From: Candidatus Moraniibacteriota bacterium
Lineage (GTDB): Bacteria; Patescibacteriota; Minisyncoccia; Moranbacterales; UBA1568
DNA: 64,000 nucleotides
Assembly: GCA_028688415.1 (NCBI GenBank)
Contig: JAQTYF010000001.1
Span: forward strand, 780,020 to 844,019
Reading direction: 5' to 3'
In this document: positions 3,795 through 55,800 of the stretch, one piece after another
Layout of the letters: the number at the start of each line of letters is the position of its first letter
Position numbering within the stretch: the stretch's first letter is position 1
Notes under the pieces: model-generated
What the model saw: only the letters and a program-made list of their open reading frames with translations
Told to the model about the DNA's origin: nothing
The model's database searches: none
Position numbers and translations under genes: made by a program

Positions 3795-3932
3795 TTACTC
3801 CGCCAGCTGGCGGATTCGGCGGACAAGCCCGCTATAGCCATCTGACATTTTTACTACACTCTCTATTTTTTTTATATTCTTCTATTCCTCTGTGGGACTG
3901 GTTGGAATCGGACCAACGACCAAGCGGTTATG

Positions 3933-4542
3933 CTTCTCACTATTGCTTTCACAACTTTTTTCAAATTTGTGAGCTGGACTATCCCTTCACCCAAAGGTAG
4001 GGTGTCTGCCGTCTAGTCTCTACACCTTCCTCAACAAACGAGGCTTGGCTCGGGATTGTCATGTAGCTTATCGCCATTTAGATTTCCCCGAATTTGACAG
4101 AGTATCACCCAAAGATTACTCTCTGGGCAGCCCTGCTAGATTCATTCGTTTTGTGTTATGATAATGTTATGAAAAAACTCATAACATGTGTGGTGTGTAA
4201 AAAAGAGTTGTCTGGCAGACAAACAGTTTTTTGTTCCGCCATTTGTAAAAACCAACTTCATCAATCATATCAATCCCAACAAGCCAGAGGCTTAGAGAGA
4301 AAGATGTCACTTTTGAAACAGTTTGGTGGAAAATGTTCAGTTTGTGGCTATAACAAAAATCTTGCCGCATTGACTTTTCACCATATTGACCCAAAAGAAA
4401 AAAGATTTCAGCTGGATATGAGATCTCTTTCAAACAGAAAGCAATCTCATATTGACGAGGAAGCAAGCAAATGTTTGCTTATTTGCAATAACTGTCACGC
4501 CGAATTACACAATCCACAACACAATTTAGAATGAACTCTTTG
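3933..4542 (-). mobile_element. group I intron in the tRNA(CAT) anticodon loop
   Basis: 5' exon ends in U33 and the intron ends in G. Conserved core elements occur in canonical order on the minus strand: P-like AAAUUCGGGGAAA (4081-4095), Q-like AAUCCCGAGCC (4047-4057), R-like UAGAGACUAGACGG (4009-4022), S-like GGGAUAGUCCAG (3974-3985). P7 pairs GACUA with UAGUC. Confidence 0.6.
4169..4534 (+). CDS. HNH endonuclease (homing-endonuclease-like), encoded antisense within the tRNA intron
   Basis: CVVCKK...CSVCGYNKNLAALTFHHIDPKEK...CNNCHAELH: zinc-finger plus HNH motif. The ORF extends upstream to 4094. Confidence 0.7.
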   Translation: MKKLITCVVCKKELSGRQTVFCSAICKNQLHQSYQSQQARGLERKMSLLKQFGGKCSVCGYNKNLAALTFHHIDPKEKRFQLDMRSLSNRKQSHIDEEASKCLLICNNCHAELHNPQHNLE

Positions 4543-4604
4543 AGCCGCGCGCTCTACCACTGAGCTACAGTCCCACTACGCTTTACCTATTGACTACTCT
4601 TTTC

Positions 4605-22523: not shown

Positions 22524-22859
22524 CTATTTATTCAGTATCTGAAAAAGATCTTCTATTCTCTTTTTTATCTCTATAAATGGCCTTTCTTTGGACTGTTTTT
22601 GAGTGAGAAAAAACACAACATCTCCTTCTTTAGGCCATTTTTCCTTATAAGAATACACTGCTTCAGACAATCTTCTCCTTAATCTATTTCGGTCCACGGC
22701 AAGTGGGAGGTATTTCTTACTCAAAGAAAATCCGATATGAAAAGATGGAGTATCTTTTTTATAACGACAGCCTATTCCTTCAAAAAAAAGAGTCTTACCG
22801 AAGCGAAAGACTCTTTCAAAATCCTCTTTTTTTCGCAAACAAAAACCTTTTTTCAACAT
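22524..22859 (-). CDS. rnpA: ribonuclease P protein component
   Basis: RNR-like motif (DRNRLRRRLSEA); downstream of rpmH. Confidence 0.8.
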   Translation of the reverse strand: MLKKGFCLRKKEDFERVFRFGKTLFFEGIGCRYKKDTPSFHIGFSLSKKYLPLAVDRNRLRRRLSEAVYSYKEKWPKEGDVVFFLTQKQSKERPFIEIKKRIEDLFQILNK

Positions 22860-22862
22860 ACT

Positions 22863-23003
22863 TTATGCTACAGTCAGTTTCTTGCGACCGTCTCTACGAC
22901 GGTTAGCGACAACTTTTCTTCCTCCGACGGTATTCATTCTTTCGAGAAAACCGTGCCGACGAGCACGCTTGAGTGTTTTTGGTTGATATGTTCTCTTTGG
23001 CAT
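22863..23003 (-). CDS. rpmH: 50S ribosomal protein L34 (46 aa; absent from the ORF track because under 60 aa)
   Basis: Manual translation gives [46 protein letters not shown]. Confidence 0.85.
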
Positions 23004-23269
23004 ATAATAAACATTACATCTTAGTCAATTGGATATTTTTCTATTGTACCAGAAAAAGAAAGGAAGTCAATCTCCAAGCCACTTTTTCTCTTTTTTTTCT
23101 CTCTTTCTCTTTATTCGTCTTTTTATATAAAAAATATCCTCTCTAGAGAGATTTTTCAGAGTTATACACCACTTATCCACTCTTTCTTTTTTCCCCCTCT
23201 TTGCCTCTTGTTCTAAGCGTGATATACTTTAATTCATTCTTTTTATCCCTAGTTAGGTGGTTTTGATTT

Positions 23270-24685
23270 ATGACAAACGAGGATCTCTGGAAAGCTGTTT
23301 TAGGGCAAATGGAACTTTCTATTTCAAAAGCAAATTTCATTACCTGGTTCAAAAACACGAATATTGTCAGTAATCAAGACGGTATTATTACTATTGGCGT
23401 TCCAAATGGTTTTGCAAAGGAATGGCTTGAGAATAAATACAATCTCTTTATTTTACGTGCACTTAAAGAACTAAGTGGTGATATACAGAGTATTCGTTGT
23501 ATTATTGCTCCTGAAAAAATAATTTCTTCTGTTAATTATTCAACTCCTCAAAAAAATATTGATGCTGTTCGAGCTCCGGAAAATACTGGCTTTGTACGAA
23601 AAAAGATTATAGAAAAACCTTTTTTTACAGAGACGGGTAGTTCTACACCTACTTTTCATGAAACAAATCTCAATAATCGCTATACCTTTGAAAATTTTAT
23701 TGTTGCGGAAAACAACGAGCTTGCTCGAGCGGCTTGTTTTGCTGTTTCACAAAACCTTGGTATGGCCTACAATCCTCTTTTTATTTATGGTGGTGTTGGG
23801 CTCGGAAAAACACATCTTCTCCAATCAATCGGCAATGAACTCGTGAAAAATTCTCCAGAAAAGAGGATTAAATACATCAATTCTGAACGATTTACAACAG
23901 AACTTGTTGATTCAATTAAAAATCAAAAGGTTGATAAATTTAAAGAATATTATCAACAGATGGATCTTCTTATTATTGATGATGTTCAATTTCTCTCAGG
24001 AAGAGAAAAAACACAGAATGAATTCTTTCATATTTTTAATGCCCTCTATCAACTTAATAAACAAATTGTTATCTCAAGCGATCGCCCTCCAAAGGCCATT
24101 CCTACGCTCGAAGAACGGTTAAGGTCTCGTTTTGAAGGAGGAATGATCACTGATATCAGTCGTCCAAACTTCGAAACACGCGTTGCTATTCTAGAATCAA
24201 AAATTGCTGAGAAGTCTTTTCTTATGGATACTCCTTCTATTCATTTTATTGCACAAAATATCACTCAAAATATTCGCGAACTTGAAGGCGCTTTAAACAG
24301 AGTTATTGCTTTTTGTGAGTTTCACAAACTTTCTCCAACACTTGAAAATACAGAAAAGATCCTTTCTCAACTTATAGAAAATAATAAAAAAACTATCCAA
24401 ATAGAGGATATCTTCCGTGTTATTACTCTTTTTTATAATATTACTCAAGAAGATCTTGTAAAAAAAGGACGTAAAAAAGAAATAGCTCATCCTCGGCAAG
24501 TCATGATGTATATGTTACGAACAGAACTTCAAACTCCTTTTTCAAGTATTGGAGATATTTTTGGAGGAAGAGATCATACAACAGCCCTTCATGCATTTGA
24601 AAAGATACAAAAAAACAAAGACCTTCACCCACGACTGAAAGAAGAGTTACAAACACTTAAAGAGCGTCTCTATTACCCGGTATAA
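23270..24685 (+). CDS. dnaA: chromosomal replication initiator DnaA
   Basis: Walker A GVGLGKTHLL; AAA+ domain; C-terminal DNA-binding domain. Confidence 0.9.
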   Translation: MTNEDLWKAVLGQMELSISKANFITWFKNTNIVSNQDGIITIGVPNGFAKEWLENKYNLFILRALKELSGDIQSIRCIIAPEKIISSVNYSTPQKNIDAVRAPENTGFVRKKIIEKPFFTETGSSTPTFHETNLNNRYTFENFIVAENNELARAACFAVSQNLGMAYNPLFIYGGVGLGKTHLLQSIGNELVKNSPEKRIKYINSERFTTELVDSIKNQKVDKFKEYYQQMDLLIIDDVQFLSGREKTQNEFFHIFNALYQLNKQIVISSDRPPKAIPTLEERLRSRFEGGMITDISRPNFETRVAILESKIAEKSFLMDTPSIHFIAQNITQNIRELEGALNRVIAFCEFHKLSPTLENTEKILSQLIENNKKTIQIEDIFRVITLFYNITQEDLVKKGRKKEIAHPRQVMMYMLRTELQTPFSSIGDIFGGRDHTTALHAFEKIQKNKDLHPRLKEELQTLKERLYYPV

Positions 24686-24948
24686 TGTATAAGTGTGTAT
24701 AAGTACCTAAAAATGGTGTAAAGTTGTTGTATAACATTTCAGTTGTTGTGGATAAAAAGAAGTTGTTTTTCTTTTTTCTCTCTTTCTTTAAAAAATAATA
24801 TACTTTCCATCTTCATTCTCTTTTTCCACTCTCCTTAAAAAGATTGTAAAGAAAGCATAAAACAAAGTTATCCAGATATCCACACCACTAATAGTAATAA
24901 TGAAGTCTTTAAAATTTAAAAAATAATAACCATTAATACACTCTCTTT
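24686..24948. promoter_or_regulatory. dnaA-dnaN intergenic oriC-like region with DnaA boxes
   Basis: Perfect TTATCCACA on the complement at 24747-24755. TTATCCAGA at 24868-24876 and TATCCACAC at 24877-24885. AT-rich stretch. One more box, TTATCCACT, at 23172-23180 upstream of dnaA. Confidence 0.55.
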
Positions 24949-26103
24949 ATGAAACTCATTTGTACACAAGAAAACCTCAATAGAATAATTTCTTATTTAG
25001 AGAAAGTAGCTGGAAAACAGTCAACACTTCCAATTTTAAGTAATTTTCTTCTTGAAACAGAAAATGGCAGATTGAAAATATCTGCAACAAATCTCGAAAT
25101 CGGTATTATAGGATATATTGGAGCAAAAATAGAAAAAGAAGGGAAAATAGCAATACCAGCAAAATTACTGAGTAACTTTATTCATAATCTTCCTCTTGGA
25201 GATGTGCTTGAATTAGAAAGCGATACTGAAGGGTTGAAAATAATCAGTACAGCTTATCAGACGAAAATAAAAGGGTTAGATGGAAAAGATTTTCCTATTA
25301 TTCCTGAATATAAGGAAGAATATTTTTTCTCGTTTCCAGCTCAAGAATTAAAAAGAGCTCTTTCTCGACTTCTCTTTTGTATTAGTGTAAATAATGCACG
25401 TTTAGAGCTCACTGGTGTGCATATTTTCTTTTATAAAGACCATATAGAATTAGCTTCTACAGATAGTTTTCGTCTCGCAGAAGAAACTATTCCTCTTGTG
25501 GTCCAAGGAAGTGAATATGATGCATTTCTTACAAACAATCAATCGCTTATCATTCCAGGAAATACCCTTCATGAAATTATTCATATTATTACCCCAGAAA
25601 GTAAAGATGTAAAAATTGCTCTCAAAGAAAATCAAATATTTTTTGAAATAGATGGCGTTCAAATTATATCAAGGATTATTAATGGTAAATATCCAGATTA
25701 TAAGCAGATTATTCCAAAAAATTTCCAATTTCAAGCTGTTTTTGAAAAAGAATCACTACAAAGAGCATTGAAAATAGCAAGTAGTTTTTCTTCCTATAAT
25801 TCAAGTGAAATTACTCTTCATCTTCAATCAAAAGAGAAACAATGTGTTGTTTCATCAGAATCTCAAGAAATAGGTACAAATAAAGCTATTCTTCCTATAG
25901 AGATAATAAAAGATAATATTGAACCACTCACCATTATCTTTAATCCACGATATCTTTTAGAGGGAATAAGTGCTCTTGGAAGTGAAAAAATTCTTTTCTC
26001 TGCAAATGATAAATCAACACCAGTAGAATTAAGAATCTCAGATACAAAAAATACCCTTCTTACAGAAAATTATCTCTATATTGTAATGCCTATTCGTAAA
26101 TAG
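24949..26103 (+). CDS. dnaN: DNA polymerase III beta sliding clamp
   Basis: 384 aa, three-domain clamp; position after dnaA. Confidence 0.9.
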   Translation: MKLICTQENLNRIISYLEKVAGKQSTLPILSNFLLETENGRLKISATNLEIGIIGYIGAKIEKEGKIAIPAKLLSNFIHNLPLGDVLELESDTEGLKIISTAYQTKIKGLDGKDFPIIPEYKEEYFFSFPAQELKRALSRLLFCISVNNARLELTGVHIFFYKDHIELASTDSFRLAEETIPLVVQGSEYDAFLTNNQSLIIPGNTLHEIIHIITPESKDVKIALKENQIFFEIDGVQIISRIINGKYPDYKQIIPKNFQFQAVFEKESLQRALKIASSFSSYNSSEITLHLQSKEKQCVVSSESQEIGTNKAILPIEIIKDNIEPLTIIFNPRYLLEGISALGSEKILFSANDKSTPVELRISDTKNTLLTENYLYIVMPIRK

Positions 26104-26127
26104 AAGACCCTTCTTACAAAGCATATT

Positions 26128-26421
26128 ATGAGAAATCTTAAAGATCTTCTTCCAAGAAAACGCTCTTCTTCTGTTGTTGTGGAAATAGATGAAAAAACAA
26201 TTTTTCATATTGCAAAACGTATTTTAATTGAAGAATATGGCGTTCGTGGTGGAGAAAATATTATACCGAGTTTTTATAAAGAAAAAAAACTCTTTCTTTC
26301 TCCACGAAGTTCTTTGTGGGCAAATGAGGTTTATCTTATGAAAGAACATATTACTCGGAGAATCAATGAAATGTCGGGTAATGAAGTAGTAAAAGAGATA
26401 AAAATTACACAACAAATATAA
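26128..26421 (+). CDS. DUF721/DciA-family small protein
   Basis: 97 aa; ...SLWANEVYLMKEHITRRIN...VKEIKI resembles the DUF721 pattern; sits just downstream of dnaN. Confidence 0.45.
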   Translation: MRNLKDLLPRKRSSSVVVEIDEKTIFHIAKRILIEEYGVRGGENIIPSFYKEKKLFLSPRSSLWANEVYLMKEHITRRINEMSGNEVVKEIKITQQI

Positions 26422-29125: not shown

Positions 29126-29273
29126 AGAGTAGATATGGGAGATATCTCTATTGTATAGCATAAAACAGATGAAAAGACAAGGAGTGGATTTGATTTGAAA
29201 ATTTGATTTTTTTGCTACAGAAGGTATATTTTGATAGTATTGCAAATAGAGAATCAATTATTTTTTTAGAGAG

Positions 29274-30641
29274 ATGTTTGAAAATCCAGCTGAAGTAAAA
29301 CCTAAACCAAAAGAAGAGGCACTCGATACGCAATGGTATTCTCAGTTTGAAAAAATTGGCAGTTTTCAGGCTTACGAATATTTTGATGGTGATAAACAAA
29401 CAAGAGAAAGAGAAAAACAAACATTTCTCGCTGGAGAAAAAGAAAATCCAGAGCTTGACTACCCTTTGCTGAACCTTGAAAATATAGCAAGTCGCGAGGG
29501 AGATCTTCTTCGTCTGAAAGAGTTGATCCTTAATGAGGAGGAGAATGAGGTGGTAAAACAAGTATATTGGTGGAAGCTGAATGAGAAGATTGCTGAAAAT
29601 CGTTTGCTCAAGGCAGCCGCCACTGGCGATCAGAGGAAATTCAAACGATACTCAGAATTCATCTACGGAAAACCATCACCTGAAATCTTTGCTTACTCTT
29701 TAGGAAGAGTAAGACAAATTATGAAAAAAGCAGACGAAAGTGAAAATGAGGAAATTCGAGTACTTGGTAGTGAGTTTGCCTCACTATTTTCCATAAAAGA
29801 TGCTTTTTCTGTGACTATTCCTTCAAGGGAAGTTCAAGCTGTAGCAAGAGAATCAACATTGGAAAGTGTCGGTGACTTAGTGAATATCAATGTTGACTCG
29901 GATCAAGAATTTTCTGCGGAAGAGATTAAGGTGCTTTTTGAAGGTGCGCTCCAAGAGTTATCTTCTGAAGGTTGGATAGTAGTGATTAATCCAAATAAGA
30001 GTGGTATAAGTGTCAACCAAGAAAAAAAGTCTGTAGAAATCCCTGAAAATAAAAAACTTTCTCTCCGTGCCCTCAAGGGTCTGATAGCACACGAAATTGG
30101 AACACACGCCGCTAGAAGAATTCGCGGGGAGAGAACGAAACTCAAGATGCTTGGTTTGGGATTTGATCGTTATGAAGCAGGAGAAGAAGGTATAACAGGA
30201 CTGAGAGAACAAGTCCTCGAAGGAGAGGTAAAGGACTTTTCTGGATTTGATGGGCATTTTGCTATCAGTCTTGCTACTGGGGTTGACGGCCATCCTCGTG
30301 ATTTTCGACAAACTTTTGAAATTTTAAAAAAATATTACCATCTTCAGAATATGCTGAAAGGTATGCCAAGAGAAGAATCTGAAAAAAAAGCCGAGACTTC
30401 TGCCTGGGGAAGATGTGTGAGGACATTCCGCGGGACGAATTCTCAGACTCCGGGAATTTGTTTTACGAAAGACATTATTTATCGTGAAGGAAATATAGCA
30501 ATATGGGAATCTGTTGCTAAAAATACTCCAGAAATGAGCAGGTGGGATGTGGGAAAATATGATCCTTCCAACCCACGTCATATTTGGATTCTTGATCAGT
30601 TGAATATTACTGACGAACAACTTCAGTCGCTTGAAAAATAG
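29274..30641 (+). CDS. DUF1704-like protein with HExxxH (HEIGTH) motif, putative MATCAP-like metallo-carboxypeptidase
   Basis: LIAHEIGTHAARRIRGE motif; 455 aa; convergent with the ATP-grasp operon. Confidence 0.55.
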   Translation: MFENPAEVKPKPKEEALDTQWYSQFEKIGSFQAYEYFDGDKQTREREKQTFLAGEKENPELDYPLLNLENIASREGDLLRLKELILNEEENEVVKQVYWWKLNEKIAENRLLKAAATGDQRKFKRYSEFIYGKPSPEIFAYSLGRVRQIMKKADESENEEIRVLGSEFASLFSIKDAFSVTIPSREVQAVARESTLESVGDLVNINVDSDQEFSAEEIKVLFEGALQELSSEGWIVVINPNKSGISVNQEKKSVEIPENKKLSLRALKGLIAHEIGTHAARRIRGERTKLKMLGLGFDRYEAGEEGITGLREQVLEGEVKDFSGFDGHFAISLATGVDGHPRDFRQTFEILKKYYHLQNMLKGMPREESEKKAETSAWGRCVRTFRGTNSQTPGICFTKDIIYREGNIAIWESVAKNTPEMSRWDVGKYDPSNPRHIWILDQLNITDEQLQSLEK

Positions 30642-30709: not shown

Positions 30710-31660
30710 TTACAAAGAAGATCTCTTTTCAAGGGAATCAATAAAATTTTTACAAAATTTTCTCCGATTTTCTCCGGTGATTGAGCCTTTGAACCCTATT
30801 TGATCGTTTATTTCAAAAATATAAGGAGTGCCATCTCGATCGATTCCAAAATCTATTGAATAAAAAGGAGAAGAAAATGCAGCATCAATCAGAGGGTGGA
30901 CTTTACTTACAATAGACCGAAGCGCAACAGGAGCATCCTCATACGAAAATTCAAAACATTGGCCACCCTGACTTATATTCGCGCGAAGCTCTCCTTTTTT
31001 TGGTTCACGTGCCTGGAGCAGTATAGGCGTACTGTTTATTATTATAATACGGAGGTCGTGGCGTCCAGAAATGATATTTGGCACACCATTACTCGTATCA
31101 ACAAATTTCTGAAGAATAAACTTTTTGTCTGGCACAAGAAGAGCAGAAGTGATGTTCTCTGCTTCGGTAATAATAACTCCCTTTCCGCCAAACCCGTCTA
31201 CTGGTTTGAATACTGCCATTTCTTGCGGATGGAATAATAGCCGAGCAGTTTCAAGGTCCTGTTTTGAAGAGATGGGAAAGGTTTTTGGCATGTATTCTTT
31301 GAGGAGCTCATAGGTGAGATCTTTATTGTTGGCAAGTTTTTTGAAGGCGAGAGAATTGAGTGTTTTATGATCAATGTCAGGTGTTGGGAAGTCTTTTCGT
31401 ATGCTTCGATCAAAAATGGCATCAAAAAGAACTTTCTTTTCTTGGAACTCAAATTGTTCCCCGGTAAAAAAGAGTATATTTTCAAATTCCATTCCACCGT
31501 GATGAATGGTAGGTTTTACTCCGAGATACATATCGAGCCCTCGTGATCTTCCTTCATGAAAAAGAGACCAATAAATTTCTCTACGATCGGGAATATGAGC
31601 GTATGGGTCGGTTGCTACTTCTTTTTTTGTGAAGTAGATGAGGATTTTTTTATTTGGCAT
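30710..31660 (-). CDS. ATP-grasp amidoligase (alpha-L-glutamate-ligase-like paralog)
   Basis: VFKPVDGFGGKGVII ATP-grasp motif; C-terminal YIFEIN. Confidence 0.55.
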   Translation of the reverse strand: MPNKKILIYFTKKEVATDPYAHIPDRREIYWSLFHEGRSRGLDMYLGVKPTIHHGGMEFENILFFTGEQFEFQEKKVLFDAIFDRSIRKDFPTPDIDHKTLNSLAFKKLANNKDLTYELLKEYMPKTFPISSKQDLETARLLFHPQEMAVFKPVDGFGGKGVIITEAENITSALLVPDKKFILQKFVDTSNGVPNIISGRHDLRIIIINSTPILLQAREPKKGELRANISQGGQCFEFSYEDAPVALRSIVSKVHPLIDAAFSSPFYSIDFGIDRDGTPYIFEINDQIGFKGSITGENRRKFCKNFIDSLEKRSSL

Positions 31661-32532
31661 AAGTAGTTGAAGAGAGAAATAATTTCTGTTGATTGCGGAT
31701 CTTCTGGTGTGAATCCAGGAGAGCGATTTACTTCAAAGAGGTACATCTTTTTATTTTTTGAAGAAATAACAATATCTACGCCAGCAACCTCAATATGTAA
31801 AATTCTTGATGCTTTTAGTGCGAGTGTCCGAAGCGGTGATGAAATTTTTCTTGGGTCAGAATAGGTTTCTGTTCCGCCGAGACTCGCGTTGTTTCGAAAG
31901 TCCTCGTCAATTTTTCGTGTACGCTCTTCGAGTGCACCGACAACATTCCCGGTGATAAATATACGAAAATCTGATTGATTAGGAATAAACTCTTGAAGAA
32001 TAAGTTTCTCAATGTCACTATGATCGAGAAGGGAAAGAAGTTCTTCTCTAGTGCGTATAAGAAATACTCCTTTGCCTTGTCGAGAAAGTATTTTTTTAGC
32101 AACAAGAGGGAGTTTGAGAAATTTTTCAGCACGAAGTAATTTTTCTTTGTTGTAAGAAGGTGAAAAATATGTTTTCGGAACAGGAAGTCCATTTTCTGCG
32201 AGAACAAACATTTGGGAAAGTTTTCCATTGATAGAACCAAAAACATGATGAGTATCGACAAAGGGAATATTCCTTTTTTGGAGGTAGAGTGCGACAAGAG
32301 TGGCGATGGGTTGGTATTTCCCGGCACGTTTTATATAAACACTATCAAAGCATGAAAGAATTTTCCCATCACAAAGAATACGAGTATTATCTTTCACGAT
32401 AAAAAATTCCATGGATTGAAAATTTCCAAGTTCGTAGAAAAATAAATTCTCAAACATTTTTTTGAGAAGAGGATCAAGACTTTTTAGATCAGTGATTACT
32501 TTGTGAGTCGGCTTGTCAGTAAGGATAAGCAT
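31615..32532 (-). CDS. RimK-type ATP-grasp ligase
   Basis: LVAKKILSRQGKGVFLI ... LFEVNRSPGF RimK-like motifs. Confidence 0.7.
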   Translation of the reverse strand: MLILTDKPTHKVITDLKSLDPLLKKMFENLFFYELGNFQSMEFFIVKDNTRILCDGKILSCFDSVYIKRAGKYQPIATLVALYLQKRNIPFVDTHHVFGSINGKLSQMFVLAENGLPVPKTYFSPSYNKEKLLRAEKFLKLPLVAKKILSRQGKGVFLIRTREELLSLLDHSDIEKLILQEFIPNQSDFRIFITGNVVGALEERTRKIDEDFRNNASLGGTETYSDPRKISSPLRTLALKASRILHIEVAGVDIVISSKNKKMYLFEVNRSPGFTPEDPQSTEIISLFNYLCQIKKSSSTSQKKK

Positions 32533-32536
32533 AATA

Positions 32537-33967
32537 CTATTTGTTCACATCGATAAGAAACTTTTTCAAATGTTTTCGTCCTATAATAACAGGATATGCC
32601 AGATGTGATCGATCGATACACGAAACTTTGGCTGGAAAAGTCAAAGCATCAACAGTGAGAGATATGAGTATTGCTGGTCGATAAGAAATACCATGAGAAG
32701 ATCGAATGAGCAGAGTGTCAGCGAGATCCGGAATAGAAGAGAAGAGTTTTTCACGTTCTTCTTTGGAAAGCTCAGTGAGAACATCTCTCCCCGCCACTTT
32801 TTCTTCGAATTTTTTTAAAACATCTTCGAATCCGAGTTGTTTCGCGAGTTCGATATCGATTGATGTCGAGTCGGCTCCAGTATCTATCTTTGCCTCCACT
32901 TCGATTTCCTTCCCATCTTTTCCTACGAGTTTTATTTTTTCGATACTTCCAATGACATGCTTACCAGAAATTTCCTCGATTTCCTCTTCGATCTCGCCAC
33001 CAAAGAGATTTTTTCCTACCCGCACTCCTCGCTCGGTTGTTTTTATTTTGAGTCCAGAAATACGCTTGAGACGTTCCTTGAGACCGCTCAAATTTGCGAG
33101 CTGGATAGAGAGTCCCGGACGGGCATTGAGTTCGAGAATCACTGGACCACGATCACGATCGATAGCGACATCTGCTCCGAGAAAACCAAGCCCTGAGACT
33201 CTCTGAGCATCAACAGCCATACGAAGAATATTGTTCCAGTACGGAATTTTTATTCCAGAAAGAGCAAGGCGCGTTCCTGGAACGTATTCGATAATATGTC
33301 CTTTTCCCAAGATAGCACTGGTTGTTGTTCCGGTAGCGAGGTCAATGCCGACTCCGATGGCGCCTTGTTGAAGGTTGGCTTTGCCGTCTGAAGCACGCGT
33401 TGGGAGGCGGAGCATGGCCATTACAGGTATATTGTTGAAGATAATAATACGTATATCAGGAATGCCCTTGAAAGCATACGGCTTGAAGAGTTTGAGGAGC
33501 TTCAATCGTTCCTCAAAAAAAGCGACATCAGGAATATTGGAAAGAGAAAATGATCCATCAATAATATTGCGGATATGATTTTTGAGATCTTCTGCGGTTA
33601 TTGTTGAGCCGTTCGCCTTGATCCAGACGAGCGGATTATTTTTTTTTCGGGCATAAACGACGACAATACCCTCTCCTCCGAAGCCACGATTCGGCTTGAG
33701 AGCAAAGCTATCAGGAAGGGATCTAAAATCGAAAGCATCAAGCTCCTCGTAATTTTTAATTTTTGCAATCAGCGTCGAAACACCAAGATTATTTTTTTGT
33801 AAAATGCGTTTACAAAGAAGTTTGCTATCCGCAATTTCCATACTTTTTCGACGATTGTAGGGTCGAATATAATCGAGATTACGGGCGTTCATACCAAGTA
33901 ATCCACGATTTTTTTTGAAGAATTCAAGCATAGAACATGACAAGAAGAAAGAAAAATTCTTTTTCAA
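32537..33967 (-). CDS. ATP-grasp (alpha-L-glutamate-ligase-like) fused to a C-terminal retropepsin-like aspartyl peptidase domain
   Basis: N-terminal GMNARNLDYIRPYN...LKPNRGFGGEGIVV...LELNARPG; C-terminal KIDTGADSTSID (D-T-G-A). Confidence 0.6.
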   Translation of the reverse strand: MKKNFSFFLSCSMLEFFKKNRGLLGMNARNLDYIRPYNRRKSMEIADSKLLCKRILQKNNLGVSTLIAKIKNYEELDAFDFRSLPDSFALKPNRGFGGEGIVVVYARKKNNPLVWIKANGSTITAEDLKNHIRNIIDGSFSLSNIPDVAFFEERLKLLKLFKPYAFKGIPDIRIIIFNNIPVMAMLRLPTRASDGKANLQQGAIGVGIDLATGTTTSAILGKGHIIEYVPGTRLALSGIKIPYWNNILRMAVDAQRVSGLGFLGADVAIDRDRGPVILELNARPGLSIQLANLSGLKERLKRISGLKIKTTERGVRVGKNLFGGEIEEEIEEISGKHVIGSIEKIKLVGKDGKEIEVEAKIDTGADSTSIDIELAKQLGFEDVLKKFEEKVAGRDVLTELSKEEREKLFSSIPDLADTLLIRSSHGISYRPAILISLTVDALTFPAKVSCIDRSHLAYPVIIGRKHLKKFLIDVNK

Positions 33968-34014: not shown

Positions 34015-34692
34015 TTAGAGATAGCGAGCAATTTTTCGAAAACGAAGATATTCCGTAATACGAAGACCTGTCCATTTGCCGAGGGAAAAATTGATAACAA
34101 AAGTAAAAAGCACCACCCAAGGATATGCTAAAAGAAGATTGGCGAGGGTTTCCCAAGAAATAAGAAAATAGCCAATAACGGAAATAACAAGTGTTTCTGT
34201 TGCAAGAATGAAAGCTATCTTGCTCCCTTTTTCTATCTGAGTAGCAATGAACTTTTCAGCAAGAGTAATCATGATAAGGAGAGGGAAGATAGAAACCGAT
34301 GCGAGACCGGTACGATGATACATCCCACCTATGACGAGTACCATAAGAATAGCAAGAGATACGATAGAGAGGGTGATGGCAACACGAGGAAGATAAAGAA
34401 GACGAAATCTTTTCAGTATGAAACGCGTAACCATTCCAACAAGAATGACGCTGACAAAAATAGCGATACCGTATTTAACTCCATTTGGATCAAACGCAAT
34501 CAACGCAAAGGTGATAATGGAGGGGGTATAGATACCGAACGCTTTGATGCCGATTACCTGACGAAAAAAAGCGACAAGAGTGGCGACAAGGGGGAGCATA
34601 AGGAGAAGAAGAACCGTCTGAAGAGGGACTCCTTGTTCGACACAAAACTGTACGAGAGAATGATAGTGCATAAAAAAATTTTCAATTTTCAA
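34015..34692 (-). CDS. polytopic (6-7 TM) membrane protein, first gene of the ATP-grasp operon
   Basis: 225 aa, almost entirely hydrophobic helices; may correspond to the 7TM module of the 7TM-inactive-transglutaminase partner proteins. Confidence 0.45.
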   Translation of the reverse strand: MKIENFFMHYHSLVQFCVEQGVPLQTVLLLLMLPLVATLVAFFRQVIGIKAFGIYTPSIITFALIAFDPNGVKYGIAIFVSVILVGMVTRFILKRFRLLYLPRVAITLSIVSLAILMVLVIGGMYHRTGLASVSIFPLLIMITLAEKFIATQIEKGSKIAFILATETLVISVIGYFLISWETLANLLLAYPWVVLFTFVINFSLGKWTGLRITEYLRFRKIARYL

Positions 34693-54906: not shown

Positions 54907-55800
54907 ATGGCAACACTCTACAATCAATATGACAAGAATATTCGTCTGACATGGGTATATATCACAATGTTTCTTCTGTTCGTTATCGGTGTCGGGTATG
55001 TATTCGCAGGGGCGATGCAGTCGAGTATGGTGCTCTATATCGCGGTTGCTTTTTCGACCATCACGAGTTTCATATCGTACTGGTGGAGTGACAAAATTGT
55101 GCTTTCGATGAGCGGAGCCAAAGAGCTCACTTTTGCAGAAAACAAAGAAATTTATCGTCTCGTAGAAAATCTCACTATCACTGCTGGTCTGCCCTTGCCA
55201 AAAATCTATACCATCGAAGATACAGCGATGAATGCTTTTGCGACGGGTCGTGATCCGAAGCATGGAGTGATTTGTCTCACAACAGGGATTATTGCTCGAT
55301 TGGAGAAAAATGAGCTCGAAGGTGTGATTGCTCACGAACTCTCGCACATCGGCAATCGCGATACACTTCTCTCGACGGTCGTAGTGATTCTCGTCGGGTT
55401 TGTAGCACTCCTCGCAGACTGGTTCCGACATTGGGCCTGGTTCGGAGGGAATCGTGATAGTGACAGCAAAAATCAGCTCCAAGTCATTCTTATGATTGCT
55501 GCCATCATCCTGTCGATTCTCGCGCCGCTTTTTGCGATGCTCATACAACTTGCTATTTCACGCAAGCGTGAGTTTTTGGCGGATGCTTCTGGAGCTCTGC
55601 TCACACGTTATCCTGAGGGACTGGCGAGTGCGCTCGAGAAGATTTCTACCGATACTGAGCCACTCGAAGCAGCCAATAGAGCGACAGCACACCTCTACAT
55701 TGCCAATCCTTTTAAGGGGAAAAATCTGACCAAGCTTTTTATGACGCACCCTCCGATGGAGGAACGAGTCGCCGCACTTCGAGGGATGGAGGTTAAGTAA
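54907..55800 (+). CDS. htpX: M48 zinc metalloprotease HtpX
   Basis: HELSHIGNRD zinc motif; 4 TM helices; follows lemA. Confidence 0.85.
   Translation: MATLYNQYDKNIRLTWVYITMFLLFVIGVGYVFAGAMQSSMVLYIAVAFSTITSFISYWWSDKIVLSMSGAKELTFAENKEIYRLVENLTITAGLPLPKIYTIEDTAMNAFATGRDPKHGVICLTTGIIARLEKNELEGVIAHELSHIGNRDTLLSTVVVILVGFVALLADWFRHWAWFGGNRDSDSKNQLQVILMIAAIILSILAPLFAMLIQLAISRKREFLADASGALLTRYPEGLASALEKISTDTEPLEAANRATAHLYIANPFKGKNLTKLFMTHPPMEERVAALRGMEVK

What the first reader, a model, noticed from the sequence alone, without database searches (positions are those of the whole stretch)
29274..30641. MATCAP-like HExxxH (DUF1704-type) putative metallo-carboxypeptidase convergent with the ATP-grasp operon
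Seen in the sequence: a 455-aa protein carries LIAHEIGTHAARRIRGE, an HExxxH motif with one extra residue relative to the classical HExxH.

Established knowledge: the DUF1704 family includes eukaryotic MATCAP, a tubulin detyrosinating carboxypeptidase that uses an atypical HExxxH zinc site. Bacterial members are uncharacterised.

Inference: by analogy with the TTL/MATCAP pair, the adjacent bacterial ATP-grasp ligases and this protein would form a writer/eraser pair. That relationship has not been shown experimentally in bacteria.
Basis: partly seen in the sequence, partly recalled or inferred. Interest (0 to 1): 0.6.

Follow-up and report, generated by a model that had tools for sequence, protein, structure and literature searches.

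The report
Bacterial MATCAP-like peptidase beside peptide ligases
This gene in a tiny uncultured (Moranbacteria) bacterium encodes a metal-dependent peptide-trimming enzyme from the same family as the human enzyme that clips tubulin tails. It sits with, and in other bacteria is physically fused to, enzymes that build peptide tails, so the two very probably work as a build-and-trim pair.

Summary
ORF 29274-30641 (+) encodes 455 aa with HEIGTH (H273/E274/H278) and a downstream EEG (E305).

**Family.** It is a divergent member of Pfam PF08014 (DUF1704/MATCAP): 65.6 bits against a cut-off of 27. The hhalign probability against human MATCAP1 is 98.3%. All catalytic residues are invariant in 26 homologues. 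NCBI already annotates the identical protein as DUF1704. A Foldseek superposition on MATCAP could not be obtained.

**Link to ATP-grasp ligases.** The link is well supported by comparative genomics:
- 27 of 50 species-level loci have an ATP-grasp gene within 3 kb, and 22 of these are co-directional.
- In sister Moranbacteria the gene overlaps its upstream operon neighbour by 4 nt, so only this gene is inverted in the window.
- Proteobacteria carry an FGase-QEGLA-GshB trio.
- At least 120 protein clusters are single ~790-aa fusions of the RloC-like ligase with a DUF1704 peptidase.

**Limits.** The peptidase is accessory: only about 10% of ligase-anchored loci carry one. The operon has its own retropepsin-like eraser domain. 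Substrate and direction are untested.

**Verdict.** This is a known family in a plausible, untested writer/eraser role. Interest is moderate.

The parts
29274..30641 (+). MATCAP-like / DUF1704 (PF08014) gluzincin peptidase, 455 aa, with no hydrophobic N-terminus (so predicted cytoplasmic)
   Evidence: ORF. PF08014 65.6 bits. It is 100% identical to the NCBI entry 'DUF1704 domain-containing protein [Candidatus Moranbacteria bacterium]'. AF2 model pLDDT 86.8.
30090..30107 (+). HEIGTH motif: H273 and H278 are the predicted metal ligands and E274 the predicted general base
   Evidence: Translation. Invariant. It aligns with HEIGTH of human MATCAP1. The E281A mutant of TMCP1 is catalytically dead (PMC10499314).
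30183..30191 (+). EEG motif: E305 is the predicted third metal ligand
   Evidence: Translation. E305 and G306 are invariant. The motif corresponds to the EEG of TMCP1/2 and the QEG of QEGLA proteins.
30420..30491 (+). Conserved C-terminal signature RTFRG...CFTKDIIYREG, shared with QEGLA proteins and human MATCAP1; a candidate substrate/carboxylate-binding region (inferred)
   Evidence: Translation. R383, R386, G387, G394, F397, K399, D400, Y403 and G406 are invariant across the three clades.
29203..29230 (+). Promoter-like site (TTGATT-16-TATATT) in the 148-bp divergent gap between the PBP1A gene and the peptidase gene
   Evidence: Consensus scan only, 9 of 12 matches. This is weak evidence.
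30710..31660 (-). ATP-grasp ligase AG316 (GshB/RimK-like), convergent with the peptidase gene
   Evidence: PF02955 41.8 bits and PF08443 29.5 bits. It is 26% identical over 115 aa (E 1e-6) to the GshB-like ligase next to a proteobacterial QEGLA gene.
31615..32532 (-). ATP-grasp ligase AG305 (RimK family); overlaps AG316 by 46 nt
   Evidence: PF08443 RimK 98.4 bits. TIGR00768 107.4 bits.
32537..33967 (-). RloC-like ATP-grasp (ATPgrasp_ST / TIGR02291) fused to a C-terminal retropepsin-like (RimB/RloA-type) domain
   Evidence: PF14397 231.9 bits and PF05618 35.1 bits. TIGR02291 295.3 bits and RloA3 42.2 bits. NCBI calls a shorter start, at 33931.
32873..32884 (-). DTGA, the retropepsin catalytic signature, within the fused peptidase domain
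   Evidence: Translation. The position was located.
34015..34692 (-). 7TM membrane protein corresponding to the C-terminal half of RloB, with no transglutaminase-like domain
   Evidence: PF14402 99.8 bits. NF052267 RloB positions 306-505 of 508.

Best explanation
**What it is.** The gene encodes a cytoplasmic, catalytically competent metallopeptidase of the DUF1704/MATCAP gluzincin family, in a divergent clade typical of Patescibacteria (CPR). H273, H278 and E305 hold a divalent metal, and E274 activates the water.

**What it works with.** It acts together with the neighbouring Rlo/Rim-like peptide-ligase module. That module consists of a 7TM RloB-like protein, an RloC-like ATP-grasp fused to a retropepsin-like domain, and two RimK/GshB-like ATP-grasps.

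**How it most likely works.** The ligases add amino acids, most plausibly glutamate-rich tails, to a carboxylate of an unknown acceptor. The retropepsin domain cuts inside such tails. The MATCAP-like enzyme removes residues one at a time from the C-terminal end, resetting or sizing the product.

**Shown here.** Family membership, conservation of the catalytic residues, and genomic and fusion linkage to ATP-grasp ligases.

**Inferred.** Metal use, exo-(carboxy)peptidase action, an acidic substrate, and the eraser direction.
For: **Family and catalytic residues.**
- PF08014 65.6 bits, E 5.2e-18; 26 of 26 homologues hit PF08014.
- The profile hits MATCAP1 structure 7z5g at E 1.4e-4; hhalign probability 98.3%, E 2.4e-14.
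- H273, E274, H278, E305 and G306, plus R383, R386, F397, K399, D400 and Y403, are invariant from CPR to a proteobacterial QEGLA protein and human MATCAP1.

**Linkage to ligases.**
- Of 50 GTDB species loci with at least 5 kb on both sides, 27 have an ATP-grasp ORF within 3 kb, and 22 of these are co-directional.
- ATP-grasp ORF density is about 14 times higher within 3 kb than at 5-10 kb: 49 ORFs against 6.
- The arrangements differ among Moranbacteria, Paceibacteria, Roizmanbacteria, Saccharibacteria and others.
- In L005 the order is TM7, AGST_RimB, a double ATP-grasp, YdjC, then the MATCAP-like gene. The last two junctions (double ATP-grasp/YdjC and YdjC/MATCAP-like) each overlap by 4 nt.
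- Aminobacter plasmid pSR7 carries FGase, QEGLA and a GshB-like ligase in tandem.

**Rosetta stone.**
- L161 encodes a 791-aa protein with PF14397 (230.8 bits) plus PF08014 (190.1 bits).
- All 120 best database clusters are the same full-length fusion.
- 119 of 120 keep HExxxH..QEG, while the retropepsin-like middle region has lost DTG[AS] in 119 of 120.

**Biochemical precedent.**
- TMCP1/2 remove single C-terminal residues and deglutamylate (PMC10499314).
- RimK builds poly-Glu tails and RimB removes them (PMC11957791).
- Loss of rloB or rloC suppresses loss of the RloA proteases (PMC12239564).
Against: - Foldseek found no significant PDB match, and MATCAP was not among the top 50 for either model. 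The best full-length hit was M32 carboxypeptidase 3hq2 at E 2.3e-3, TM 0.23; the best hit for the truncated domain had E 0.5.
- From the ligase side the peptidase is rare. Only 5 of 52 AGST_RimB-anchored metagenome loci with at least 3 kb downstream carry any DUF1704 gene.
- 22 of the 50 MATCAP-anchored loci have no ATP-grasp within 10 kb.
- In this window the gene is convergent and so separately transcribed.
- No acceptor was identified. The window has no ORF with an acidic C-terminal tail and no rpsF.
- Carboxypeptidase specificity is extrapolated from eukaryotic enzymes that share about 33% identity over 120 aligned columns.
- The Pfam score is far lower than for proteobacterial members (65.6 against 308.3 bits), so specificity may have diverged.
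Confidence: 0.55

Rival explanations
1. Maturation or envelope role rather than eraser. The peptidase would process a cytoplasmic precursor, either trimming an acceptor's C-terminus so the ligases can extend it, or acting on a glycopeptide or cell-envelope polymer precursor that the 7TM protein then handles. The system would serve cell-wall or surface-polymer modification.
For: - PBP1A lies next to the gene here and in 14 related loci.
- YdjC-like deacetylase and GT4 glycosyltransferase genes sit inside the cluster in several Moranbacteria.
- Pfam names PF14397 'sugar-transfer associated ATP-grasp'.
- P. aeruginosa rlo mutants show cell-shape, beta-lactam and hypo-osmotic phenotypes (PMC12239564).
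Against: - PBP1A adjacency is almost confined to one syntenic Moranbacteria block (RuvC...PBP1) that also exists without the peptidase (L085 and others). It may therefore be inherited gene order.
- YdjC and GT4 genes are absent from this window.
- The enzyme lacks a signal peptide.
- The fusion proteins pair the peptidase directly with the ligase, not with glycan enzymes.
Confidence: 0.2
2. Independent housekeeping peptidase. The enzyme is a general cytoplasmic oligopeptide-degrading metallopeptidase, and its position next to the ATP-grasp operon in this genome is incidental.
For: - The gene is convergent and has its own promoter-like site.
- 22 of the 50 MATCAP-anchored loci lack a nearby ATP-grasp, and their neighbours are highly variable.
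- Most ligase modules lack the peptidase.
- The weak structural hits are to M32 carboxypeptidases, which are general peptide-degrading enzymes.
Against: - ATP-grasp genes are about 14-fold enriched within 3 kb, in several differently arranged lineages.
- Relatives show 4-nt gene overlaps in an operon.
- Proteobacteria have the QEGLA-GshB pairing.
- There are at least 120 clusters of covalent ligase-peptidase fusions.
Confidence: 0.1
3. Non-catalytic regulator. [quoted passage not shown]
For: The only functional label for the bacterial family in NCBIfam is regulatory.
Against: - All metal-binding and catalytic residues are invariant across 26 homologues and across clades.
- The match to TIGR02421 is far below its cut-off (47.8 against 338.65 bits).
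- 119 of 120 fusion proteins keep the catalytic motifs while the adjacent retropepsin motif decays. This argues for selection on catalysis.
Confidence: 0.03

Closest known systems
Human MATCAP1/TMCP1 (KIAA0895L) and MATCAP2/TMCP2 (KIAA0895), tubulin metallocarboxypeptidases
   Same: Same Pfam family (PF08014). Both have HExxxH, EEG as the third-ligand motif, and the RxxRG...CF(S/T)KDxxYxxG signature. Both work opposite ATP-grasp ligases: TTL/TTLL in eukaryotes, RimK/RloC-like here.
   Different: Only about 33% identity over about 120 aligned columns. The window protein has a different N-terminal helical region and no microtubule-binding region. Its partners are RimK/GshB/RloC-type ligases, not TTL. 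No structural match was retrieved by Foldseek. Its activity is untested.
Proteobacterial QEGLA-motif proteins (TIGR02421) in FGase-QEGLA-GshB-like operons
   Same: DUF1704 peptidase encoded next to an ATP-grasp ligase (Aminobacter pSR7). The catalytic motifs are shared. In Photobacterium damselae, a gene annotated QEGLA motif protein (RS17025) and the next-numbered gene annotated glutathione synthase GshB (RS17020) are induced 27- and 38-fold at low salt (PMC10308900).
   Different: The window protein scores 47.8 bits against the 338.65 cut-off, so it is not an equivalog. It has EEG, not QEGLA. There is no FGase gene. Instead it sits with a 7TM and RloC-retropepsin module.
ATPgrasp_ST-DUF1704 fusion proteins (~790 aa) of Peregrinibacteria, Gracilibacteria and other Patescibacteria
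   Same: The same two activities that lie side by side in the window are joined in one chain. These proteins are preceded by an RloB-like 7TM gene (L161).
   Different: The peptidase domain is the QEGLA type (190 bits to PF08014). The retropepsin-like linker has lost its DTG motif in 119 of 120. The window keeps an active-looking DTGA and has a separate peptidase of the EEG clade.
RimK/RimB (and the RimBK hybrid) ribosomal protein S6 polyglutamylation system
   Same: An ATP-grasp alpha-L-glutamate ligase is paired with a dedicated peptidase that removes the added glutamates (PMC11957791). AG305 is RimK family (98.4 bits).
   Different: The known eraser is a retropepsin-like endopeptidase, not a metallocarboxypeptidase. 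The known hybrid has RimB at the N-terminus of RimK, whereas here the retropepsin domain is C-terminal to an RloC-like ligase. No rpsF lies nearby.
RloABC operon of Pseudomonas aeruginosa
   Same: It combines an RloC-like ATP-grasp (TIGR02291, 295.3 bits), an RloB-type 7TM domain and an RloA/RimB-type retropepsin domain. Genetics show that ligase and membrane protein act upstream of the protease (PMC12239564).
   Different: RloA is secreted and encoded separately, whereas here the domain is fused to the ligase and so cytoplasmic. RloB's transglutaminase-like domain is missing. Two extra ATP-grasps and a MATCAP-like peptidase are present. The paper reports that 96% of RloB hits come from Proteobacteria.
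M32 (Taq/BsuCP) carboxypeptidases, DUF885 and ACE-type gluzincins
   Same: These are the best, though weak, Foldseek hits of the full-length model (E 2e-3 to 2e-2, probability 0.69-0.97). All are gluzincins that act at peptide C-termini.
   Different: They have HExxH, not HExxxH. TM-scores are 0.2-0.3 and there is no sequence-level relationship. This is not a membership claim.

Membership tests
Pfam PF08014 (DUF1704 / MATCAP) | Whole-protein HMM score above the gathering threshold | tested here: met
   65.6 bits, E 5.2e-18, cut-off 27. All 26 aligned homologues match, with a best E of 1.4e-30.
Pfam PF08014 (DUF1704 / MATCAP) | HExxxH metal-binding and catalytic motif, conserved among homologues | tested here: met
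   H273, E274 and H278 are invariant.
Pfam PF08014 (DUF1704 / MATCAP) | Third metal ligand Glu in an (E/Q)EG motif about 30-35 residues downstream | tested here: met
   E305 and G306 are invariant. The spacing from E274 is 31 residues, against 35 in TMCP1/2.
Pfam PF08014 (DUF1704 / MATCAP) | Detectable homology to the solved MATCAP1 catalytic domain | tested here: met
   phmmer gives E 0.013 and the profile gives E 1.4e-4 to 7z5g. hhalign gives 98.3% probability, E 2.4e-14.
Pfam PF08014 (DUF1704 / MATCAP) | Three-dimensional superposition on the MATCAP1 structure (7Z5G/7Z6S) | tested here: inconclusive
Pfam PF08014 (DUF1704 / MATCAP) | Metal-dependent carboxypeptidase activity | not testable with these tools
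   Requires an enzyme assay.
NCBIfam TIGR02421 (QEGLA-motif protein, hypothetical equivalog) | Score above the curated cut-off, and the QEGLA motif | tested here: not met
   47.8 bits against 338.65. The motif is GEEGITG, not QEGLA. The protein is not a member of this equivalog, only of the wider family.
RloABC / RimBK-type ligase-peptidase system (the neighbouring operon) | RloC/TIGR02291-type ATP-grasp ligase | tested here: inconclusive
   295.3 bits, just under the 314.2 cut-off. PF14397 scores 231.9 bits.
RloABC / RimBK-type ligase-peptidase system (the neighbouring operon) | Retropepsin-like peptidase with a catalytic DTG | tested here: met
   PF05618 35.1 bits and RloA3 42.2 bits. DTGA lies at 32873-32884. 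The domain is fused rather than secreted, unlike RloA.
RloABC / RimBK-type ligase-peptidase system (the neighbouring operon) | [quoted passage not shown] | tested here: not met
   Only the 7TM half is present. The protein has 225 aa and matches RloB positions 306-505 of 508, at 79.4 bits against a cut-off of 900.
TTL (tubulin-tyrosine ligase, PF03133) as the 'writer' | Significant TTL-family match in the adjacent ligases | tested here: not met
   AG305 has only a marginal C-terminal PF03133 hit (25.5 bits, no stretch passing on its own), against 98.4 bits to RimK. The ligases are RimK/GshB/RloC-like.

The most novel reading that the evidence does not exclude
DUF1704/MATCAP peptidases and RloC/RimK-type ATP-grasp ligases form an ancient, modular bacterial writer-eraser cassette for C-terminal (poly)glutamyl-type tails. 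The cassette occurs as neighbouring genes, as operons and as single fusion proteins, and in the fusions the metallopeptidase has replaced a decayed retropepsin eraser.

On this reading the cassette is the prokaryotic forerunner of the eukaryotic TTL/TTLL-MATCAP tubulin-tail cycle. In bacteria it would be coupled through the RloB-type 7TM protein to hypo-osmotic or envelope homeostasis, for example reversible polymerisation of the osmolyte glutamate. That suggestion rests on low-salt induction in Photobacterium and the rlo hypo-osmotic phenotypes.
Probability: 0.25. Interest if true: 0.75.

Novelty: new member of a known kind. Interest (0 to 1): 0.45.

Why it matters
Bacterial DUF1704/MATCAP homologues have no demonstrated activity. 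The Rlo system matters for antibiotic tolerance, biofilm formation and osmotic survival in Pseudomonas, but its product is unknown.

The neighbourhood and fusion evidence found here turns 'bacterial MATCAP' into a concrete experiment: ligase plus peptidase, taken from one operon or one polypeptide. It suggests that metallocarboxypeptidase and retropepsin erasers are interchangeable in these systems. It also offers a prokaryotic origin for the eraser of the tubulin tyrosination cycle.

For the gene itself the result is modest, because it is a correctly annotated member of a known family.

Tried and rejected
- **Literature.** Iyer et al. 2009 (Mol Biosyst; PMC3268129) is the paper I recall as describing ATP-grasp/peptidase neighbourhoods. 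It is not held, so prior description of the DUF1704-ATP-grasp link rests on my memory only. Searches for DUF1704, QEGLA and the TIGR/Pfam accessions found nothing mechanistic.
- **Defence-system reading.** No PADLOC hits for any of the five proteins; rejected.
- **Substrate search.** The window has no ORF with an acidic C-terminal tail and no rpsF.
- **Inversion footprint.** No convincing inverted repeats flank the gene.
- **Terminator.** No convincing terminator lies in the 68-bp convergent gap.
- **Alternative conserved partner.** In loci without ATP-grasp genes, neighbours are nearly all singletons. The exception is an unannotated 249-aa family, c15, which has no Pfam match.
- **N-terminally extended homologues.** P0233 and P0255 carry no extra recognisable domain.
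- **AG316 as universal partner.** The idea that AG316 is the one conserved partner of the peptidase was rejected, because the nearest ligase type varies by lineage (AG316-, AG305-, c4- or AGST-type).
Full report
**Observation.** The ORF at 29274-30641 (+) exists, starts with ATG and encodes 455 aa containing LIAHEIGTHAARRIRGE. Nucleotides 30090-30107 translate to HEIGTH. The motif by itself is not significant. From the amino-acid composition of the window's 58 non-overlapping ORFs, 0.52 HExxxH motifs are expected by chance and one is seen. Its significance comes from homology.

**Source.** The window is from a Candidatus Moranbacteria MAG (GCA_028699965.1, contig JAQVTP010000001.1). The identical protein is already in NCBI as 'DUF1704 domain-containing protein', and relatives are named 'tyrosine/phenylalanine carboxypeptidase domain-containing protein'. 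The gene lies near the dnaA-dnaN origin region.

**Family.**
- Pfam PF08014 (MATCAP, formerly DUF1704) matches at 65.6 bits, E 5.2e-18, against a gathering cut-off of 27. All 26 aligned homologues match it.
- The proteobacterial equivalog TIGR02421 (QEGLA) matches only at 47.8 bits against a cut-off of 338.65. A proteobacterial QEGLA protein scores 308.3 bits against PF08014. The window protein therefore belongs to a divergent clade.
- An exhaustive search of 1.84 billion cluster representatives finds 1627 proteins at E <= 1e-3 and 394 at E <= 1e-30. The named homologues from the word-index search are Patescibacteria.
- In 26 homologues at 47-86% identity, H273, E274, H278, E305 and G306 are invariant.
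- Against the PDB, the single sequence hits MATCAP1 (7z5g, KIAA0895L) at E 0.013 and the family profile at E 1.4e-4. hhalign of the family against the 127-aa MATCAP1 fragment printed in that alignment gives 98.3% probability, E 2.4e-14.
- A joint alignment of CPR members, an Aminobacter QEGLA protein and MATCAP1 leaves these residues invariant: H273, E274, G276, H278, L293, G296, E305, G306, F344, R383, R386, G387, G394, F397, K399, D400, Y403 and G406.
- In TMCP1/2 the HExxxH glutamate is essential (E281A is dead), and the EEG motif supplies the putative third ligand (PMC10499314). E305 is the equivalent residue.

**Structure.** AlphaFold2 gave confident models of the full protein (pLDDT 86.8, pTM 0.86) and of residues 120-455 (pLDDT 85.0).
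- Foldseek against the PDB gave no match at E <= 0.001 for either model.
- The full-length model's best hits were M32 carboxypeptidases, a DUF885 protein and ACE/ACE2, at E 2e-3 and above, with TM 0.2-0.3.
- The domain model found nothing meaningful, and MATCAP1 was never listed.

It has not failed. The sequence-profile evidence for homology is strong.

**Neighbours in the window (minus strand).**
- AG316 (30710-31660): GshB/RimK-like ATP-grasp.
- AG305 (31615-32532): RimK family, 98.4 bits. It overlaps AG316 by 46 nt.
- A 476-aa protein (32537-33967): an ATPgrasp_ST/TIGR02291 'alpha-L-glutamate ligase-like' domain (231.9 and 295.3 bits) joined to a C-terminal retropepsin-like RimB/RloA-type domain with an intact DTGA.
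- A 225-aa 7TM protein (34015-34692): corresponds to the C-terminal half of RloB.

This is an Rlo/Rim-like module. In Pseudomonas, RimK polyglutamylates RpsF and RimB removes the glutamates (PMC11957791). Loss of the RloA proteases is suppressed by loss of RloB or RloC (PMC12239564). None of the five proteins matches a known defence system.

**Is the peptidase linked to the ligases? Peptidase-anchored view.** I fetched 79 species-level loci encoding relatives and searched their ORFs with iterated ATP-grasp and 7TM profiles.
- Of 50 loci with at least 5 kb on both sides, 27 have an ATP-grasp ORF within 3 kb and 11 have one within 500 bp.
- The nearest ATP-grasp is co-directional in 22 and opposite in 5.
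- There are 49 ATP-grasp ORFs within 3 kb against 6 at 5-10 kb, about 14-fold denser.
- The partner types and gene orders differ between lineages, which argues against mere inherited synteny:
  - the full TM7-AGST_RimB-ligase set in Moranbacteria;
  - TM7 plus AGST_RimB only in several other Patescibacteria;
  - a lone RimK-like ligase in Saccharibacteria.
- No other neighbour family recurs broadly.
- In Moranbacteria relatives the order is RuvC, TM7, AGST_RimB, ligase(s), sometimes YdjC or GT4, the MATCAP-like gene, then PBP1A, all on one strand. In L005 the double ATP-grasp/YdjC and YdjC/MATCAP-like junctions each overlap by 4 nt.
- The window has the same block with only the peptidase gene inverted. 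The convergent arrangement is therefore derived. It is shared with the closest species (L003) and with an independent assembly (L002).

**Wider support.**
- On Aminobacter plasmid pSR7, a QEGLA protein lies between an N-formylglutamate amidohydrolase gene and a GshB-like ATP-grasp gene. AG316 is weakly similar to that ligase (E 1e-6).
- In Photobacterium damselae, a gene annotated QEGLA motif protein (RS17025) and the next-numbered gene annotated glutathione synthase GshB (RS17020) are induced 27- and 38-fold at low salinity, alongside RimK at 52-fold (PMC10308900).

**Reverse view: the strongest support and the main limitation.** I fetched 80 metagenome loci anchored on the AGST_RimB protein.
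- The 7TM gene is almost always directly upstream.
- A DUF1704 gene is present in only 6 loci, or 5 of the 52 with at least 3 kb downstream.
- The peptidase is therefore an accessory, not a core, component. Close relatives such as L085 have the same RuvC...PBP1A block without it.

Three of those six loci carry a QEGLA-type DUF1704 gene.
- In L137 it follows AGST_RimB after a single in-frame stop codon.
- In L161 the two are one 791-aa ORF: PF14397 at 230.8 bits plus PF08014 at 190.1 bits. It is preceded by a 508-aa RloB-like gene that overlaps it by 4 nt.
- A database search with this fusion returned 2107 proteins at E <= 1e-10. All 120 best clusters are full-length fusions of about 790 aa carrying both Pfam domains. 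They come from Peregrinibacteria, Gracilibacteria, other Patescibacteria and one Nitrospirota MAG.
- 119 of 120 keep HExxxH...QEG, while the retropepsin-like middle segment has lost DTG[AS] in 119 of 120.

This is a classical Rosetta-stone argument for functional coupling. It also suggests that the metallopeptidase can take over from the retropepsin-type eraser.

**Mechanism proposed.**
- Shown: family membership, intact catalytic residues, and genomic and fusion linkage to ATP-grasp ligases.
- Inferred from TMCP1/2 and from RimK/RimB/Rlo biochemistry:
  - the ligases extend a carboxylate of an unknown acceptor with amino acids, probably glutamate-rich;
  - the retropepsin domain cleaves internally;
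  - the MATCAP-like enzyme, which has no signal-peptide-like N-terminus, removes C-terminal residues one at a time.
- No acceptor was found: the window has no acidic-tailed ORF and no rpsF.

**Rivals.**
- A maturation or envelope-polymer role, suggested by PBP1A, YdjC and GT4 neighbours and by the rlo cell-shape phenotypes.
- An unrelated housekeeping peptidase, suggested by its own promoter-like site, the many loci without ligases and the weak M32-like structural hits.
- A non-catalytic regulator, which is contradicted by conservation of the catalytic residues.

**Comparison with known systems, and novelty.** The protein is a member of PF08014 but not of the TIGR02421 equivalog. The adjacent ligases are not TTL: PF03133 gives only a marginal hit, against 98.4 bits to RimK. 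The TTL/MATCAP analogy therefore holds at the level of 'ATP-grasp ligase plus DUF1704 peptidase', not as orthology of the writer. The gene is already annotated as DUF1704, so it is a new member of a known kind. In the literature I could search, I found no description of two things: its embedding in an Rlo-like module in Patescibacteria, and the abundant ligase-peptidase fusions with a decayed retropepsin domain.

**Verdict.**
- The family assignment is supported.
- Functional coupling to ATP-grasp ligases is well supported computationally.
- The eraser/carboxypeptidase mechanism is plausible but untested.

Noticed in passing
window ~3896-4574 (minus strand); Rfam hit 3952-4149: A group I intron (RF00028, 59.8 bits against a cut-off of 50) lies in a tRNA cluster and appears to split a tRNA(CAU) gene. 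The 5' half GGGACTGTAGCTCAGTGGTAGAGCGCGCGGCTCA lies at about 4574-4541, and the 3' half TAACCGCTTGG...CCAACCAGTCCCA at about 3933-3896. About 600 nt lie between them, and only the last ~200 nt match the ribozyme model. ARAGORN does not call it, even when introns of up to 400 nt are allowed.
   Followed up: partly
L161:5769-8144 and proteins P0269-P0388: A large family of ~790-aa proteins fuses an RloC-like ATP-grasp, a retropepsin-like segment that has lost its DTG catalytic motif (119 of 120), and a QEGLA-type DUF1704 peptidase that keeps its motifs (119 of 120). This looks like a peptidase swap inside one polypeptide.
   Followed up: partly
L005:9309-9962; also L006, L007, L008, L037, L052 (YdjC); L003, L035, L036, L052, L068 (GT4): In several Moranbacteria, a YdjC-like deacetylase gene or GT4 glycosyltransferase genes are inserted between the ATP-grasp genes and the MATCAP-like gene. 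This hints that the product may involve a sugar. Both are absent from this window.
   Followed up: partly
L064:9160-9933, L070:11220-12700, L071:11220-12700, L074:9135-9908: An unannotated ~249-aa protein family, sometimes in tandem copies, lies next to the most distant MATCAP-like homologues (28-34% identity), which lack ATP-grasp neighbours. It lies immediately upstream and divergent in L064 and L074, and about 15 bp downstream and convergent in L070 and L071. It has no Pfam match.
   Followed up: partly
L004, L006, L007, L010, L020, L024, L047, L053, L056 and others (record titles): Many TPA metagenome-assembled genomes are labelled 'uncultured Bdellovibrionales', 'Gammaproteobacteria', 'Micavibrio' or 'Pseudomonadales'. 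Yet they carry Moranbacteria/Patescibacteria-type genes and synteny, with 40-77% identity to the window protein and the same RuvC...PBP1A block. The record taxonomy looks unreliable.
   Followed up: no
window 22524-26421: A chromosomal origin-type gene set: rnpA, dnaA (23270-24685), dnaN (24949-26103) and a DciA-like gene (26128-26421). Cumulative GC skew reaches its minimum at about 26-28 kb. The ligase/peptidase cluster therefore lies within about 3 kb of the likely origin.
   Followed up: no
window 54907-55800 (+): A 297-aa ORF carries a classical HExxH motif (EGVIAHELSHIGNRD) and looks like an HtpX/M48-type membrane peptidase. It is the only other zincin-like motif in the window apart from a chance HEIIH in DnaN.
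   Followed up: no
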